This document shows, piece after piece, positions 14,701 to 49,000 of a stretch of DNA of 64,000 nt. Made by a program: the position numbers and the translations under genes. Each line of letters opens with the position of its first letter. Position 1 is the stretch's first letter. Source of the DNA: Octopus vulgaris. Lineage: Eukaryota. The stretch is taken from positions 41,664,001 through 41,728,000 of the forward strand of contig OX597830.1 of NCBI GenBank assembly GCA_951406725.2, read 5' to 3'. Below the pieces are notes generated by a model. It was not told the DNA's origin. It saw nothing but the letters and a program-made list of their open reading frames with translations, and ran no database searches.

Positions 14701-17700
14701 TAAAATGCAGTTGTGCTATGTAAATAAGATGAAGTGTTCAGAGGTGCCTTAATAATCTTATGAGTTAAGGAATGTTGCCTTCACTATCACTTTGTACATT
14801 TGTTCCTTCTGAAATGATTTGAACCAACACAGGTTACAACTAATCTAATTAAATTCTAATGATTATCTTCATACATTATCAAGTTGAATATTATTGGCTC
14901 CTATATTAACTAAATATTTCAGAAAACAATTTTATCAATCAGAATAATAATCAAGACACCATATCAGGTAACACCATATCAAGTAATAATCCCTAATTCA
15001 TATAGTTATTCTAAAATTAGTCAAAACCAGTTCTTGGTTTGGCAGATTAAATATAACACTGCATTTCAAGAATCTTTTCTGTATTTAGCAATTTCACTGG
15101 AAAAGGTCTGATTACTACAAAAATTGTCTTTAAAAAATGTTTTAATTCAGTATAATAGTGTTATCCAAAGATATAACTTAAAGTGAATTGAATTAACTTT
15201 AAAAAATTTTTTTTTAAATGGTTGAGGTTCAGAATTTAAAAAAAAATCAATTTGCTAGTTAAAAACCAGTTGTTACTTCTCAGCAGATCAATAACATAGT
15301 TGATCAATTAATCAATCAAAACACTTAATTGTAACGTTTCTATTTTGATTTTTTGATTTTCTCTCTAATAATCTGTATTTAAATTCTAACTTTGGATTAT
15401 TCTGATTTCTGTCATTTTTCTAGTAGATTCTGTGCATGCCATTACAAAACTAAAATACTTCATTATATTACAATCTAAAACAATCCTATTAGGTGCCAAT
15501 ATGTCTTTGAAAGATGTCTATAACTCAGTTTTAATTGACATGCATAATGTGGAACTGAGCAGGAAAGACAATTATAAGGATTTAATCATATTTATAGAAA
15601 GTAAGAAAATAGATGGTGACCCCTATTTCAGCAACTAATATTCAACTATAAAAACTATTCAGATTGACTGGACAATTACTAACTGATGTGCTGTTGACCC
15701 TTTTTCAATAGGGAAATAACACTGGCAATTCTCCAGCTGGCGTCCCTTTTTTAAGCGTCCCCAGACTTGACAAATTTTCGTATCTGCTCATCGTTACATA
15801 AGCTAAAGCTCACATGTGGTGCTGAGTTACAATTCATGTAGGCTACAGAACACATCTTCAAGTGTGCATCAGGTGGTAAACTAGGATAAGCAATTCAGTT
15901 TTCGTGCCTTGGTCTTATTACTCTCTCTCTTTTACTCTTGTACTTGTTTCAGTCATTTGACTACAGCCATGCTGGAGCACCGCCTTTAGTCAAGCAAATC
16001 GACCCCCAAGACTTATTCTTTATAAGCCTAGTACTTATTCTATTGGTCTCTTTTGCCAAACCGCTAAGTTACATGGATATAAACACACCACCATCAGTTG
16101 TCAAGCGATGTTGGGGGGGACAAACACAGACACACAAACACACTCACACATATATACATATGTATGATGGGCTTCTTTCAGTTTCTGTCTACCAAAACCA
16201 CTGTGACATCTTGCAAGCATTAATTTCAACTCTTCTTATAAAGTGCATAACTGCATTGACACCTTATACTGAAATTTCAATAAACTAACAAGTGTACTAA
16301 GCAAACCAACCTGTATTTGGTAGAAACTACAGGCAGATCACACCATGCTATCTTTATATAATGCATGTGTCTTTAAATGCACATAGAAGTACACGTATGT
16401 ATTAGGTATGCATATAGATGTATGAATATGCATATATATATATATATATATATAATTCTTATAGACACCTACTGATATTATTTTAATCCCTGTTCTATGA
16501 AATAAAATCTTTCTAACATGCTTTTTAATTTTTCTTATTTCAGGGTCGATGTTATCCCTACAGTTCCTGTAGACACGCTTTCCTTCCATTACCTGTGAAA
16601 TACCAGAAATCAAGTTATGACTCACTTCTCTGTCTTATTGACATTACTTACAAAACTATAACTGAAAATGTAAGTAATTTTCTTACCATTATTTAACTTT
16701 GAAGCTACTTTAACAAAATAATTCTTCATATCTTTTAATGAAATATGTAATGAATGTTGGGATAAATCATTTACATTGGACAGATATGTGTCCTCATTTT
16801 GTTTGTTGTTACCACAACGTTTCGGCTGATTTACTCTCCCACCTTCATCAGGTGTCCTGGTAGAAATAATATAGTATGGGTTTATGTTGGTATACATACA
16901 TAGGTGCTGGCATGGTAGTGTGGTTCAGAAGCTCACTTTGTAATCCATGGTTTCAGGTTCAGTCCCACTACATGGCACTTTGGGCAAGAGTCTTCTATAA
17001 TCCTGGGCTGACCAGTGCTATGTGAGTGAATTTGGTAAATGGAAACTGTGGAAGCCTGTTGTGTGTGTATGTTGTGTTTATCTCCACCCCCAACTTGACA
17101 ACTTGCTGGTTTGTTTACATCCCCATAACAATGTTTTGGCAAAAACAGACCAATAGAATAAGTTCCAGACTTGAAATAAGCACTGGTATTCAACTAAATT
17201 CTTCAAGGTAGTTCCCTAATATGGCTGCTGTTTCATTTTTTGCACTGTTACTTGTAGCCTGGAAAACCTTATAATAAAAATCAGCAATTTTGACCTTGCA
17301 TCCGGTAATCTTTGGTAAAGGATTAAATGCTAAGATTAAACAAAAGTCAAGCAACAATTGACTGTCAATTTGTGTTTTGTGTCTATTAGTAAAACTGGCA
17401 TGTGACACCATCCTTCTTAAGAATTAAAAATGATACAAGTCTTTGAACATAGTCGAGTAATCCATCATTTGATTTGTATTGTATCTGAACAGATCAAAAC
17501 TACTGAGTAGCAAAACCATCATAAGATATTGGCATTGGATTGAACCTTGCTGCAATCAATGTAATTATCCTGGACAAAGTGCATAACTGTATCTGATTCA
17601 GCTTTACTGATTGACAAAAATGGGTTTCATCTCATTCTAAGCCATTCAGCAGTTCAGTTAAAATGGTTATTAATTTTTAAAATATGTGAAATTAAAATAC

Positions 17701-23700: not shown

Positions 23701-24594
23701 AGGCAAAGACCACTACAGCTTGGCACCAGTGATGTTGCAGCTCATTTCTACAACTGAGTGAACTGGAACAACATGAAATAAAGTGTTTTGCTCAAGAACA
23801 CAATACACAGCCCTGCTTGGGAATTGAACTCTCTACCTCATGATTGTAAACCCAGTGCTCTAACTACTGAGCCATGTGCCTTCGCATATATATATGTGAA
23901 GATCAAACAAATAGTGTGTGTTTGTGTTTAATTGGCAAAAGATAACCATCCCCAAATAATATATATCATCATCATTGTCATTAACATCCGTCTTCCATGT
24001 TGGCATGGGTTGGACACATATATATAATTTGGGGATGGTTATCTCTTGCCAATTAAACACACACACTATTTGTTTGATCTTCACTTTATCTTTATTATTA
24101 TCATTTTCAGTTTATTTGTCTGAGTTCTTTTGTCATACATTATGTGACCTCTTTAGTGACTTTCTGCCCCTCTTGTCTCCTTTTCTCTAATAATAATAGT
24201 AAAGTTAACATCTCAGCAACATTCTGGGCCATTTTTCTAGTTTTGAAAATGGTTCAAAAATGTTATTTAAATACTAGATAATACAAAAGTTATTCTAATA
24301 TTCTATTACTCTGTATTTCCTACAGGTTACTGGGATATTGATTTAAAAGTTATTCTATTATTCTATTATTCTATTACTCAGTATTTCCTACAGGTTACTG
24401 AGATACTAATTTAACAGTTATTCTATTCTGTATTTTCTACAGGTTACTGGTTTGGTATATTTCAAACAGAATGTGGCAGAAAAGATTCTTTCATTTCATG
24501 TGAAACCTCCATTAGATGGTTGCACTTACATTGGCCTTGATAGTGGACAAACGCCAAAACAGGTATAAGCATCATTAAAGTATCATCTATATAC

Positions 24595-24638
<44 letters not shown>

Positions 24639-24867
24639 TGGAGTAAACACATAAATGTGAAACAAGGTGGAAAAAAGAGTACTCAAATACCAGTGGTAGA
24701 GTAATATGCTTTATTTAAAGCAGCAGAAAATTCAACAAAACGTGTTACTCTGAGTTTCCCGTTCATTGGACAGTTTTTGCTAGATTCTAGCAAAAACTGT
24801 CCGATAAACAGCAACGGGAAACTCAGAGTAACAGGTTTTATTGAATTTTCTGCTGCTTTAAATATAG

Positions 24868-24902
<35 letters not shown>

Positions 24903-26229
24903 GTGTGTGTAATCGTGTGTCAGATATGCCAAAGTATTTGACACATGAAGCACTACTTAAATGTTATTATTTTTTACTTATTTGTTTCTCACCACTCCTT
25001 TGCAGGATCTTGCTTTTTGTAGCCATGCAACCAGGCTGTGTGATTAAGAACCTTGCTTCCCAATCATGTGGTCTTGGGTTCAGTTTTACTGTGTAGCACC
25101 TTGAACAAATGTCTTCTTGTCTTCTACTAAAACCTTTGGGCTGCCAAAGCCTTATGAGTGGATTTGGTAAAAGGAAACTAAAAGAAGCCCATCGCACGCA
25201 TGTGTGTGTGTGTGTGTGTATTCTTGGCATTACTTGATGGTTGTAAATGAGCATCATCAAACCAGTGCTTTTCACATGGCACCATTACCATATATATATA
25301 CAAAGTTAATTGACAAATAAAAAGACCCTAATTAAAGGTATTCTACCTGATTTTCAGTTGTCCCTCTTCTTTGATGTGTTGCTGCCAATGGCTACCAATA
25401 TAACAGAAGAAGATTTCGTATCTGGGAAAAGAGTTCATTCTTTTAAAGACTTTCCTATCAACGAAAACGGAAGTGGAGATTGGCAAAATGCTAAAGAAGT
25501 GCGTCAAATTTTGTGGAATGAATTGAATAGTTTAAAAATAATGACTTGTACGTATCAACTATTTTACTTTGCAATTTCTTTTTTTAAATTCTTTTATTTT
25601 GGAGTGAGTCAGTATTTGTGCTCTTACTGTACAACTGACTCTATGGTCCTAAACTCGGTTGTTGAATTTTGCACCCAGCTAATGCACATTTTTGTCTGCC
25701 TGTTTGGCAAACAAATACCACTCACTGACCCTTTAGTAAGTTATACCCACCTTTCTCTCTCTCTCTCTCTCTCTCTTTGTGTTTGTCCCACCACCCCACT
25801 TGACAACCAGTGTTGGTTTGTTTACATCCCTGTAACTTAGTGTTTTGGCTGAAAAGAATGATAGAATAAGTACCAGACTTAAAAATAAGTCCTGAGATTG
25901 GTTTGTTCAACTAAAAGCCTTCAGGGTAGTGCTCCTGCATGGCTGCAGTCCAATGACTGAAGCAAGTAAAATATATATATATGTGTGTGTATGTATAAAT
26001 ATATACACACACACACATACTGGGTTTTTTCCCGATCAGTCGCCATTATTGATCACTAAATCCATAAGTTTTTTTTTTATTCTCTCTCTGTTTGTTTCCT
26101 CATATTCCTTTCTGTTGAGGAGCGTAGGCTCAAAACATAAAAGACTTTCTCACTTTCCCAAGTATCAAACTAATACACCTGCTTGTTGTTCATACACCTG
26201 TTTCATCTTGTTTTACTGTAAATTACAAC

Positions 26230-34300: not shown

Positions 34301-37300
34301 CTTAGAAAGTTCCCCTCTAAGGCACAAGTCCGGACAAGGTTGTTTATGGAGAACCAGCAGTTGCCCATGCGTACCAGCATCTCCTCTCCATGCCACCGAT
34401 GTTATCCAAGGGAAAGGCAAAGGCTGATAACATCTTGGCATCAGTGACATCACAACTCATTTCTTCAGTTGAGTGAACTGGATCAACGTGAAATAAAGTA
34501 TCTTGCTCAAGAATACAACACACAGCCTGGTTCAGAAATTGAACTCACTATCTCATACTCTATGTGTGTTGGTTGAAAGCCTTTTAAACTGCAATATTTT
34601 CCTTGAGAAAGTATCTCTTATAAACTTAACAGTGTTAAAAACACCAAAATAGCTGCAGATAATGTGAAGGATACACAGCATTGGTGATGAAATTGCTGGA
34701 TCTGGATTTCTGCTTGCCAGCTAAATGCAGTGTCAGTGACCTTTCAGTCACTGTTTAACAGGTTGCAGTTGATGCTTGCTTGACATGAGGTGACAGGGAT
34801 ATTTGTTACCAAAGAAGCTAACGAGCAGAAATTTAGATCCAGCAAAATCACCACCAAACAATGGATGACCTTTGCCTGTTACTGATATTCTTCATTGTCT
34901 TGAAAAAATATCTCTTACAGACATTAAAGAGTCAAAAACAAATACCACAGTTTCAAAGGCTTTCAACATATATACAGTTAAGTGTGTATAAAGTTAGTGA
35001 TAGAAGCGGTATTAGTTCAAAATTAGCTAAGAATGAATTTTTAACACTTTAGAGTTTGGGGACACAAATCTTTCTCTGGGGTTCTGGAAAGGAGACAAAT
35101 ATTCTGAAAGTTATATTTGGCATGTCTTGGTTAATAATACTACTCATAGTATGAGTGAGAATTCATTAAAAGGGAATTGAAGCATGGGGTAAACTACCCA
35201 CATCAGTTATTAGCTGTTGGGACACTACATCCTTCAAAATTTACATACTTCCTGAAATTCACCACCCATACTCCTGATCTGCATCCCCCACAATTTTTTT
35301 GTTTTAAATGACTCCTTCACTGTTCACTTCTTGTGCATTATTCCATGTACTGTTCATGCACTTTCGACTACTTTTTTCTTATGAGTTGTAGTGCACCTGA
35401 GCACTGTATACAATAAGTTCATTATTATTATTATCATTAAGGCAGTGAACTGGCAGAACCATTAGCACACTGGGTGAAATACTTACCAGTATTTCATCTA
35501 TCTTTACGTTCTGAGTTCAAATTCCGCTGAGATTGACTTTGCCTTTCATCCTTTAAGGGTCGATAAATTTAGTACCAATTACGCACTAGGGGTTGATGTA
35601 ATCGACTGGTCCCAAAATTTCAGGCCTTGTGCCTATAGTAGAAAGGATAATTATTATTAAGGTGGCAAGCTGGCAGAGTCGTTAGCATGCCAGGTAAAAT
35701 GCTTAGTGGCATTTCATCCATCTTTATGTTCTGAGTTCAAATTCCACCGAGGTTGACTTTCCTTTCATTCTTTCGGGGTTGATAAATTAAGTACCAATTG
35801 AGCAGTGGGATCAATATATTCAACTATCCTCTTCCCTAAATTTCAGGCCTTGTGCCTATAGTAGAAAGGATAATTATTATTAAGGTGGCAAGCTGGCAGT
35901 CGTTAGCATGCCAGGCAAAATGCTTAGTGGCATTTCATCCATCTTTATGTTCTGAGTTCAAATTCCACTGAGATTGACTTTCCTTTCATCCTTTCAGGGT
36001 TGATAAATTAAGTACCAATTGAGCAGTGGGATCAATATATTCAACTATCCCCTTCCCTAAATTTCAGGCCTTGTGCCTATAGTAGAAAGGATAATTATTA
36101 TTAAGGTGGCAAGCTGGCAGAGTCGTTAGCATGCCAGGCAAAATGCTTAGTGGCATTTCATCCATCTTTATGTTCTGAGTTCAAATTCCACTGAGATTGA
36201 CTTTCCTTTCATCCTTTAAGGGTCGATAAATTTAGTACCAATTAAACACTAGGGGTCGATGTAATCAATTGGTCCCAAAATTTCAGGCCTTGTGCCTATA
36301 GTAGAAAGGATAATTATTATTAAGGTGGCAAGCTGGCAGAGTCGTTAGCATGCCAGGCAAAATGCTTAGTGGCATTTCATCCATCTTTATGTTCTGAGTT
36401 CAAATTCCACTGAGATTGACTTTCCTTTCATCCTTTAAGGGTCGATAAATTTAGTACCAATTAAACACTAGGGGTCGATGTAATCAATTGGTCCCAAAAT
36501 TTCAGGCCTTGTGCCTATAGTAGAAAGGATAATTATTATTAAGGTGGCAAGCTGGCAGAGTCGTTAGCATGCCAGGCAAAATGCTTAGTGGCATTTCATC
36601 CATCTTTATGTTCTGAGTTCAAATTCCACTGAGATTGACTTTCCTTTCATCCTTTCAGGGTTGATAAATTAAGTACCAATTGAGCAGTGGGATCAATATA
36701 TTCAACTATCCCCTTCCCTAAATTTCAGGCCTTGTTCCTATAGTAGAAAGGATAATTATTATTAAGGTGGCAAGCTGGCAGAGTCGTTAGCATGCCAGGC
36801 AAAATGCTTAGTGGCATTTCATCCATCTTTATGTTCTGAGTTCAAATTCCACTGAGATTGACTTTCCTTTCATCCTTTCAGGGTTGATAAATTAAGTACC
36901 AATTGAGCAGTGGGATCAATATATTCAACTATCCCCTTCCCCAAATTTCAGGCCGTGTGCCTTTAGTAGAAAGGATTGTTATTATCATTATTATTATTAT
37001 CTATGTACAGTCACTTGTTGAATTAGAAGAATTGTGAAGTCATGCATTTTCTTCTGTTTTTAACTTTATTTTTATTTATTAATTCTTCACTGTTTCAGAT
37101 GGAGAGAATCTTGGAGATTATCTTTATCAGAGATTTTAAAATTAGTCGACCTTAGCAGTGAATTTTCTCTTCGAAGGTAATTCAAAAAATTCTTTGTGTT
37201 TCATCAAAAAGCTTAACTGACTGTTAGAGATGAGACTTTGGTCTGTGTCAAGAATCTCTATCTGAGGTGCACTATCAATACATAGCTGCATAATTTTATT

Positions 37301-46000: not shown

Positions 46001-49000
46001 ATACCAGCATGGAAAACAGACATTAAATGATGAGGATGAAATAAGTACATTGCGCTTTTGTTTTCAAATATTTCCCATGTCAAATAAAGTGGTTGGCATT
46101 AGGAAGGGCATCCAGCTGTAGAAGTCATGACAAAGCAGACCTTGCAGCTCAATGCAGACTTCTGGCTCATTAGTTCCTGCTGAACCATCCAACCCATGCC
46201 AGCATGGAAAAAAAGGACGTTAAAATGATGAAGAGGATCATCCTTATGTACCATGCTCTGCTGGAGCCTCAGTAAACACATTTTTCTACTGTCGTTCCCC
46301 ATGTCCTTTTCCACAATGCAGCACAGCTGATTCTAAGAAATGAAGTGGGGGAAGGAATCAATCCTTAGTACTTAATTGGTATTTTACTTCACCAAGTCTG
46401 GAAAGATGAACTTAGCAGGATTTGAATTCAGAATGCCAAGTTCCAGAACAAATACCTCAAAGTGTTTATCCAATGCTCTAATAATTCTACCAACCAGCCA
46501 ACCACACTAGTATTATAATTGAGCTTAGTACATTTCACTAAACCCCTTTCATGGATTCTTGTGAGTATACACAGATAAATCTAACTTCAGAAAGAGAACA
46601 TTTTTGCTTTCCATTTCCTTTTATTTTTCTGAAAGTTTCTTCATATTTTATGAGAAAATGTATTTAACAAAACAAAACACACTTGAAATATTTTGATGCA
46701 CTCTTTCAATAATTCATTATTTATCTATTTATAATTTTCAGTTTGTAGAAGTGAAAGATGGCGTTTTGCCTGATTATGAAAAATGGATCACAGTGGAGTG
46801 CCCTGCTCGACTTGATCTTAGTGGCGGCTGGACAGATACACCTCCTATTACATATGAATGTGGTGGGGCAGTGACTGGAGTTTCTATCACCATTAATGGA
46901 AAGGTAAGGCCCACTATAACAATTATTTGAGATCAGAAATATGGTCAGTAAGTATAAAAGGTCAGTAAGTATTAGCAATAAAAGAGTTGGAAGGTCACCT
47001 AAGAATTAATACTGAGTCACAGACCACTACAAATCATCAGAAAAAGTAGCCAAAATGGCATGAACAATACATAAGATAATGTACAGGAATGAATCATTAA
47101 AAAAAAAATGATGGGAATCACATCAGGAGTATTATTGGTGAATTTCAGGAAGCATGGAAGTTTTGAAGGATGTAGTGTCTCGACAGTTAACAACTGATGC
47201 AAGTAGTTTATTCCATGCTTCAGCAATTCTGAGCATGAGAAATGTTCACAAGTCATGGGTGCTGTGTTGTTTTTTGATTTTATAAGCATGTCCACGAGTG
47301 TTAGACATATGGAATTCAAAAAGGTGCCCAAAGTTGTTTTTGGAAAGATGGTGGATAGTCTTGTGGGTGTTTACCGAGTCAGTAGCCACTTGTCAGAGTT
47401 TTAATGGGTCCATGCTTAGAGAAGCAAGATGTTCAGAGTTTGGCAGACGCCTGATGGTGGGTATTCGTTTGGTTGCATATTTCTGAACAGTTTCCAGGAA
47501 ATTGATATGATGAGCAAGACAGGGGCTCCAAACATGCTAGCCATGTTGGCTCATTAATTTTTAACTTCTGAAGCTATAGTTGTAACTGAATTAGGAAAAG
47601 GAAATAAAAATGGTGATTATTCAGATTTGTTGCTGTCACAATCTTACAATTATGGTTTGCTGGACTGAGTGGTGCATTGTGTTCTTCAGCACAAACACTT
47701 CATCTAACATTGCTCCTGTGCACTCAGCTATAGATGAGTTCTAGCAATAGCTTGAAAGTTAACTCTGCAATGGACTGGCATCCTATCCAGGGAGGAGTGT
47801 TGTAATCTGTCACTTATGAATGATGGAAACTGGGTGAAGCTCTAGCCTCCGAGAGATAAAAAATAAAATCTAGCATTCAGCTATAGATGAGTTCCAGCAA
47901 TAGCTGGAAAGTTAACTCTGCAATGGACTGGCATCCTATCCAGGGAGGAGTGTTGTAATCTGTCACTTATGAATGATAGAAATTGGGTGAAGCTCTAACC
48001 TCCCTGAGAGATAAAAAATAAAATCTAGCACTCAGCTATAGATGAGTTCCAGTAATAGCTGGAAAGTTAACTCTGCAATGGACTGGCATCATATCCAGGG
48101 AGGAGTGTTGTAATCTGTCACTTATGAATGATGGAAATTGGGTGAAGCTCTAACCTCCCTGAGAGATAAAAAATAAAATCTAGCACTCAGCTATAGATGA
48201 GTTCCAGTAATAGCTGGAAAGTTAACTCTGCAATGGACTGGCATCATATCCAGGGAGGAGTGTTGTAATCTGTCACTTATGAATGATGGAAACTGGGTAA
48301 AGCTCCAGCCTCCCTATTTGAGAATAAGATAAAACTGAAAAATAATAAAAGTTGAATTGCATTTGACATTATTCTTCTCAATTATGTCTTTATTTCATCC
48401 ATTCTACCTTATACAATGTGATAGTTTTGTTATCTGATAAAAAATAATCTGCTGGTTTAAATCGTTTAGTTAATAAGTTATTAAAATTTTGATAGCAATA
48501 GTTTGGCAGATTTAGAAGAAAAACAGACAAAATGCTATACAGTGTTTAGTTAGGCCTCTTTTATGTTCTGATTTTGAATCCTCCTGAGTTTAACTTTGTC
48601 TTTAATCCTTCCAGGATTGAATTATACTTCATTAGGATTGATTTTGTCTATGTAATTCACTATACCTCATTCCTCTGATCTGTTAGCCTTGTGCCTATGT
48701 TACGAAGCAGTAGTAAAATTTTAAGTGTTATTTAATGTTTTTTTTTTTCCCCTTATATCTTCTGTTTGTTTATTTTCATATTACTATAGAAACCAATTGG
48801 AGCAAAGGCAAAAAGAATAGAAAAGTAAGTTTTCTATTTTTTTTTTCATATTTCAATTCAAATGGAAAGTGAGTGTGTGTTTGATTTTTAATATAAGCAT
48901 AATGCTATAAATTTGCGGGGATCACGCAATCAATTGAATTATACTCTAAACTTAATTGATAATTATTTTACCAGTCAGGGTAAGTTGGAATTTAACTCGG

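What the first reader, a model, noticed from the sequence alone, without database searches (positions are those of the whole stretch)
24638..24863. Inverted dimer with two opposed hammerhead motifs and a U4C core
Right arm (+, 24797-24834): CTGT CCGATAA acagcaacgg GAAA CTC-A-GAG TA ACAG. Left arm (-, 24742-24773): CTGT CCAATGA acgg GAAA CTC-A-GAG TA ACAC. The merged core is C-C-G-A-U-G-A (U4C). Stem I is CTGT/ACAG, and stem III has a 1-nt loop, which implies dimeric folding. The element sits in (TA)n between exons 8 and 9, so either strand would transcribe one motif. Each arm has a different core mutation, so this copy is probably inactive.
Basis: partly seen in the sequence, partly recalled or inferred. 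Interest (0 to 1): 0.72.

Follow-up and report, generated by a model that had tools for sequence, protein, structure and literature searches.

The report
Penelope stub with C4-variant hammerheads
This 230-base fold-back in an octopus fucokinase intron is one of thousands of head-to-head stubs of a Penelope-type jumping gene; its two ribozyme motifs are decayed, but they come from older subfamilies that spread with a C in place of a normally fixed U, which the youngest, intact subfamily likely regained.

Summary
The motifs are real and at the stated places. The element (24638-24867) is two head-to-head copies of the end (pseudo-LTR) of a Hydra-clade Penelope-like retrotransposon, in (TA)n of fucokinase intron 8. 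This layout is known: 27 of 28 sampled pairs have one long and one short end.

The C4 core is the true subfamily state (983 of 1,151 arms). Three older subfamilies carry C4. The youngest (3,513 arms, intact 711-aa ORFs) has the canonical U4, as do 58 of 77 outside Hydra loci. The subfamilies form one chain whose age order points to a C4-to-U4 reversion (about 65%). Only the U4 form is predicted to fold best as a dimeric hammerhead.

Stub ends pile up 9-14 bases before the motif, not at the cut site, so they were likely copied from uncut RNA. This copy is inert: both cores are mutated and locked in a -108 kcal/mol hairpin, and opposed motifs cannot form the dimer. Cleavage was not tested. This scan has noted C4 Hydra hammerheads and such stubs before, on other DNA.

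The parts
24588..24637 (.). (TA)n target microsatellite, left flank
24638..24784 (-). Long arm: pseudo-LTR from position -11 to +141 (first base of stem I = 0), including the 71-nt tail; 3 substitutions and a 6-nt deletion against a real sister copy
24638..24708 (-). 71-nt tail (+71 to +141), present on one arm only; likely lies between two reverse-transcription start sites (inferred)
   Evidence: PMC11167929
24742..24773 (-). Decayed hammerhead motif: C4 core, G5A (a CpG-type change), stem II deleted, one stem I pair broken
24784..24785 (.). Head-to-head junction; the arms begin at -11 and -12, inside the family-wide pile-up of 5' ends
24785..24867 (+). Short arm: pseudo-LTR from -12 to +70; 4 substitutions against a real sister copy
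24797..24834 (+). Decayed hammerhead motif: C4 core, G8A, one stem II pair lost; predicted cut after 24830
24868..24910 (.). (TA)n and (TG)n microsatellite, right flank
24445..24562 (+). Host gene L-fucose kinase, coding exon 8 (the intron 8 donor follows)
25358..25558 (+). Host gene L-fucose kinase, coding exon 9 (3' edge approximate)

Best explanation
This is a decayed head-to-head double copy of the pseudo-LTR of a Hydra-clade Penelope-like retrotransposon in a TA microsatellite, from a subfamily whose hammerhead motif carries C at core position 4; it was likely made by copying an uncut RNA twice and is predicted to be inert. Shown: family identity, autonomous partner, two fixed 3' ends (+70, +141), one of each per inverted pair, 5' ends piled at -14 to -9, C4 in three older subfamilies and U4 in the youngest. 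Inferred: the element's protein nicks both strands of (TA)n and starts reverse transcription at +70 and +141 near the 5' end of its RNA; both cDNAs run through the uncut hammerhead to the RNA start near -13 and are joined there. The C4 motif is likely a poor cutter, so transposition did not need efficient cleavage. The lineage later likely regained U4 together with a change that removes a competing fold.
For: Full-length copies carry the same motif at both ends, 3.3-3.5 kb apart, around an RT plus C-terminal endonuclease ORF. Hydra signatures RWK, DKT, CxCX5C, CxxC and CxH are all present. 27 of 28 inverted pairs have exactly one tail. Of 100 arms sampled by their 3' part, 25 begin at -13 to -9, none at -14 to -26 and none at +34, the first base after the cut. 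In 261 arms that reach the motif, 91 of 211 at risk end at -9 to -14 and 13 of 120 at -15 to -30. An anole Penelope protein nicks and extends both strands, starts at two internal sites that match the tail, and uses uncut RNA (PMC11167929). Core counts. Outside relatives: 58 of 77 loci have a U4 motif, 1 a weak C4 hit, and 20 shuffles none. Chain with no private sites in the middle subfamily over 340 sites; divergence 2.2, 1.7, 1.4 and 0.8% along it. The dimeric hammerhead is the best fold only for U4; C4 forms lie 1.8-6.2 kcal/mol above their best fold.
Against: No cleavage or RNA-end data. The RNA start at -13 is inferred only from where genomic copies stop; a 4-base palindrome at -10 could draw junctions there, although arms not scored as joined to an inverted partner also stop there (30 at -9 to -14, a rough classifier). 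Only the oldest-versus-youngest age difference is significant (p 0.001; neighbours p 0.06-0.49). At ORF residues 56, 458 and 511 the U4 subfamily, not the C4 one, matches most distant relatives, which fits a sister-lineage history instead of a reversion; residues 88 and 507 point the other way. Lack of copies starting at +34 holds for U4 as well as C4, so it says nothing about which cuts better. No tree with named Hydra references was built.
Confidence: 0.8

Rival explanations
1. Same element, but U4 was never lost in the surviving lineage: C4 arose once on a side branch that amplified and died out, while a U4 sister persisted at low copy number and expanded later.
For: One change instead of two at position 4. 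Three ORF residues (56, 458, 511) where C4 copies depart from distant relatives. The midpoint-rooted ORF tree groups the 10 C4 copies it holds as one clade.
Against: It would make the GGAA-loop subfamily the youngest C4 group, but it is the most diverged. It would also need the T before GAAA, seen in 28 of 52 outside motifs, to be regained. No old U4 copies were found.
Confidence: 0.3
2. The C4 motif is a working, protein-assisted hammerhead variant kept by selection.
For: C4 lasted through three subfamilies while the free position 7 changed and loop II switched between two GNRA loops. A viroid U4C variant is weak in vitro yet supports infection (PMC3088659). An anole Penelope hammerhead cuts only with its protein.
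Against: Few changes separate the subfamilies, so conservation of the other core bases is weak evidence. C4 creates competing pairings with stem II. No credible C4 motif among 77 outside loci or among the Hydra motifs listed in File S2 of PMC8557442.
Confidence: 0.3
3. The inverted dimer is itself a functional two-strand ribozyme unit or a non-autonomous element (retrozyme-like or MITE-like).
For: Such short palindromic stubs are very common; the 3' anchor has 8,267 exact hits.
Against: Junctions differ from copy to copy, so the stubs are independent products, not one amplified unit. The arms are unequal, one with the tail. Opposed motifs pair with each other. Retrozymes are head-to-tail repeats (10.64898/2026.07.22.740005).
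Confidence: 0.04
4. The motif is a chance resemblance to a hammerhead.
For: No Rfam hammerhead hit; single arms show no unusual stability; stem II is only 2-3 bp.
Against: Same place and near-identical stems I and III in outside Hydra elements with canonical cores; 58 of 77 loci on the sense strand against 1 antisense and 0 in shuffles.
Confidence: 0.02

Closest known systems
Hydra clade of Penelope-like elements, e.g. Hydra-2_Amil, Hydra-1_Ajap, Hydra-1_Obim (Craig et al. 2021, PMC8557442; seen: passages, section 11, supplement part 2 and supplement searches)
   Same: RT with C-terminal endonuclease, RWK, DKT, CxCX5C, (TA)n target, hammerhead near the 3' end, inverted 5'-truncated copy and tail. 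Hydra-2_Amil has the same stem I and nearly the same stem III.
   Different: All Hydra motifs listed there have U4. This family has a 2-3 bp stem II with A at 10.1, a 71-nt tail (30-40 described) and a 3.3-3.5 kb unit (under 3 kb described). It is a different family from Hydra-1_Obim, whose motif and N-terminus differ by eye.
Minimal and palindromic hammerheads of metazoan Penelope-like elements (Cervera and de la Pena 2014, PMC4209133; seen: parts 1-2 of 4, results and discussion)
   Same: Type I motif in pseudo-LTRs, palindromic helix III, dimer-dependent and weak in vitro; pairs on opposite strands 100-700 bp apart were already noted.
   Different: The core variant described there is U3-A8; I saw no U4C in the parts read. 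The conserved G10.1-C11.1 pair is missing here.
Natural U4C hammerhead of a viroid (Ambros and Flores 1998, seen only as cited in Perreault et al. 2011, PMC3088659; seen: passages and section 8)
   Same: Same core change; reduced in vitro, tolerated in vivo.
   Different: There one viroid variant; here the majority state of three retrotransposon subfamilies with about 2,160 exact-pattern arms.
Poseidon element of the green anole, PAc (Frangieh et al. 2024, PMC11167929; seen: parts 1-2 of 4)
   Same: Both-strand nicking, two internal start sites that define the tail, hammerhead not needed for insertion in vitro.
   Different: Different clade; its hammerhead overlaps the ORF start, whereas here the ORF begins 209 bases after the motif.

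Membership tests
Hydra-clade Penelope-like element | Single ORF with RT and C-terminal GIY-YIG-type endonuclease | tested here: met
   711-aa ORF at L180:5867-7999 with RT motifs at 313 and 344 and an endonuclease-like region from 580, read by motif; the local Pfam scan itself gave no family
Hydra-clade Penelope-like element | RWK and DKT motifs | tested here: met
   Residues 37 and 113 (definition)
Hydra-clade Penelope-like element | CxCX5C linker; CxxC and CxH around the conserved E and N | tested here: met
   Residues 562, 667 and 686 in L180; some intact copies have F at the second cysteine
Hydra-clade Penelope-like element | Insertion in (TA)n; pseudo-LTR tandems, inverted copy and tail | tested here: met
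Hydra-clade Penelope-like element | Generally shorter than 3 kb (descriptive, not strict) | tested here: not met
   Motif-to-motif unit 3.3-3.5 kb
Hydra-clade Penelope-like element | Placement in an RT tree with named Hydra references | not tested
   Reference sequences were seen only as cut text in the supplement
Canonical type I hammerhead | Core C3-U4-G5-A6-N7-G8-A9 | tested here: not met
   Window arms: C4 plus G8A or G5A. Subfamily: C4 in 983 of 1,151. Met by the youngest subfamily: U4 in 100 of the 100 listed of 3,513
Canonical type I hammerhead | GAAA, A15.1-U16.1 pair, NUH triplet and stem I | tested here: met
   Right arm and family; the left arm has one stem I pair broken
Canonical type I hammerhead | Stem II closed by G10.1-C11.1 | tested here: not met
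   A with U, C, G or A by subfamily; outside relatives often U-U, 22 of 52
Canonical type I hammerhead | Palindromic stem III allowing a dimer | tested here: met
   Two-strand folds of real copies form the intermolecular helix III; prediction only
Canonical type I hammerhead | Self-cleavage | not testable with these tools
   Only assembled contigs were available
Non-LTR retrozyme | Head-to-tail tandem units, each with a hammerhead | tested here: not met
   Head-to-head single pair (definition)

The most novel reading that the evidence does not exclude
A Penelope-like lineage transposed for three successive subfamilies (over 2,000 copies) with a crippled C4 hammerhead and then restored the canonical core, along with a base change that makes the active dimer its best fold, just as it produced its largest burst. 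That would be a natural loss-and-regain experiment showing the ribozyme is dispensable yet advantageous. The abundant stubs would be complete copies of the RNA's 5' leader, not random truncations.
Probability: 0.35. Interest if true: 0.65.

Novelty: new variant of a known kind. Interest (0 to 1): 0.42.

Why it matters
The role of hammerheads in endonuclease-bearing Penelope-like elements is stated to be unclear (PMC8557442). This family offers natural, near-identical C4 and U4 versions in age order, plus intact ORFs, so the question can be tested directly. C4 motifs also escape descriptors that demand the canonical core. The locus itself is ordinary debris in an intron.

Tried and rejected
Rfam scan: no hammerhead family, only hairpin-type chance hits. 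Pfam and PDB scans of the ORF: nothing. A splice-acceptor explanation of the 5' pile-up: rejected, because most piled arms keep the bases upstream of the candidate AG, and no spliced joint appeared in four RNA-guess contig sets (a blank there proves nothing). Cleavage-derived stubs starting at +34: 0 of 100. A closer protein outgroup to root the subfamilies: the best was 58% identical, and the shorter-length search listed nothing above 52%. Sequencing runs: no RNA holder on record, contigs only, so no RNA ends, circles, editing or presence/absence of this insertion could be read. Viral and prokaryote collections were not scanned. Lunse et al. 2017 on dimeric Penelope hammerhead variants and Ambros and Flores 1998 were not held. 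One alignment row (L105) had wrong coordinates and was ignored. One misaligned copy (L013, 30% divergent) inflates the C4 ORF mean, so that mean is not used.

Full report
Observation. The two motifs are in the sequence as described. The element runs from 24638 to 24867 between TA tracts. It has a 147-base arm on the minus strand and an 83-base arm on the plus strand, joined head to head at 24784/24785. The transcript is predicted to fold into one long hairpin of -108.2 kcal/mol, z -19.2. The host gene is L-fucose kinase: an exon here is 100% identical to a protein labelled Octopus vulgaris, and mapping that protein puts the element between coding exons 8 and 9. Positions below count from the first base of stem I (0); the predicted cut follows +33.

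Family. A search of the genome gave many 95-99% identical copies. Following longer ones upstream led to full elements. L091 has the motif at both ends 3,491 bases apart, an inverted truncated copy at its head, and a broken RT plus endonuclease ORF. Five fetched loci (L178-L182) hold uninterrupted ORFs of about 710 aa. The protein carries RWK, DKT, CxCX5C, CxxC and CxH, the signatures given for the Hydra clade (PMC8557442 section 11). That paper also describes the inverted 5'-truncated copy, the tail and the (TA)n preference as typical. Pfam and PDB scans were blank; 1,074 database proteins matched, the best at 58%. I built no tree with named references.

Is it a hammerhead? In 77 metagenome loci of related elements, my descriptor found a U4 motif on the sense strand in 58, one weak C4 hit, one antisense hit, and none in 20 shuffles. 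Several have the same stems I and III as here, as does Hydra-2_Amil in the published list, where every Hydra core has U4. So the motif is a homolog of the Hydra hammerhead, and C4 departs from the clade norm. Stem II is weak: two or three pairs with a GNRA loop and no G10.1-C11.1 pair.

Subfamilies. Exact patterns split the family by the base before GAAA and by loop II.
- A type: 3,513 arms, U4 in all 100 listed.
- G type, the window's own: 1,151 arms, 983 with an intact C4 core and 59 with U4. Among the first 100 listed, U4 and G5A occur three times each, as CpG decay would give.
- T or C type with a GCAA loop: 412 arms, U4 in 5 of 100 listed.
- GGAA-loop type: 601 arms, U4 in 3 of 100 listed.
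These are counts of arms that match exactly, so they are lower bounds. All uninterrupted full ORFs I saw belong to the A type.

Order. Over 340 comparable sites the G type has no private base, the T type 5 and the older A group 10, with one three-way site, so the types lie on one chain. Divergence from each type's majority, measured outside the search pattern on 29, 23, 30 and 30 arms, is 2.2, 1.7, 1.4 and 0.8% in chain order; only the two ends differ significantly, p 0.001. A T before GAAA, the state of the oldest types, is also the commonest outside, 28 of 52 motifs. This favours C4 first and U4 regained, which a CpG change could supply. Against it, three ORF residues make C4 copies look derived relative to distant relatives, two point the other way, and the midpoint-rooted tree shows C4 as a clade. 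I put reversion near 65%.

Folding. For the commonest real 50-mer of each type, the dimeric hammerhead is the lowest-energy two-strand fold for both U4 groups. For the four C4 groups it lies 1.8 to 6.2 kcal/mol above a fold in which core bases pair with stem II bases. This is a prediction. A natural U4C viroid ribozyme is reported as much weaker in vitro but sufficient in vivo (PMC3088659).

How the stubs form. Arms end at +70 or +141, and 27 of 28 inverted pairs have one of each. In 100 consecutive arms on one contig, chosen only by their 3' part (one search lists 100 of 8,267), 25 begin at -13 to -9, none at -14 to -26, and none at +34. Seven begin at +28 to +39, three of which look like internal deletions. 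Among 261 arms that reach the motif, 91 of 211 stop at -9 to -14 and 13 of 120 at -15 to -30, in C4 and U4 types alike (this set is not a random sample). Position -13 fits an initiator consensus (recalled, not from a call), and Drosophila Penelope has an internal promoter (PMC2377424, passages). An anole element nicks and extends both strands from two internal start sites and uses uncut RNA (PMC11167929). I infer that each stub is two cDNAs of the RNA's uncut 5' leader joined at their ends. The window's arms begin at -11 and -12. A short palindrome at -10 may contribute to the pile-up.

This copy. Each arm has its own damage, which fits decay after insertion from a C4 template. The motifs face opposite ways, so they cannot supply each other's helix III, and in the fucokinase pre-mRNA the sense motif is predicted to be locked by the other arm. 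Run data were contigs only and settle nothing about RNA ends.

Novelty. Opposite-strand pairs and dimeric Penelope hammerheads are published (PMC4209133). Searches for hammerhead with U4C and for octopus, Penelope and hammerhead found no report of C4 in a retrotransposon. However, the most relevant paper, Lunse et al. 2017, was not available, and I did not see the supplements of PMC4209133, which list many motifs. This scan's own unreviewed notes already record C4 cores in Hydra elements of other genomes and similar stubs in this one. What I add is the subfamily series with canonical U4 in the youngest, intact type. Verdict: a new variant of a known kind; an ordinary locus in a useful test family.

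Noticed in passing
window 24290-24450: Three tandem copies of an acceptor-like segment ending at the exon 8 splice site of fucokinase, 68 and 49 bases apart; possible alternative acceptors.
   Followed up: no
window about 16800-16855, minus strand: A second hammerhead-like motif of another family: canonical U4 core, G-C closed stem II, minimal helix III.
   Followed up: no
window 23925-24057: Another inverted repeat in intron 7.
   Followed up: no
window 35491-36985 and 47720-48315: Tandem arrays of 223-bp and 155-bp units at 93-96% match.
   Followed up: no
window 10747-63270: Exons matching a 1,086-aa bifunctional fucokinase continue beyond the 582-aa database protein, so that model looks truncated.
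   Followed up: partly
L131:2-1153: A different Penelope-like ORF with a CxxC-type linker lies next to a family copy.
   Followed up: no
L178-L182: Several otherwise intact ORFs have F in place of the second cysteine of the CxCX5C linker.
   Followed up: no
L178:5197-5310: In four RNA-guess contig sets the pseudo-LTR end is far deeper than the ORF body, likely from passenger stubs in transcripts; such hairpins could be A-to-I editing substrates.
   Followed up: partly
L250:2400: An outside Hydra motif with the U3-A8 core variant.
   Followed up: no
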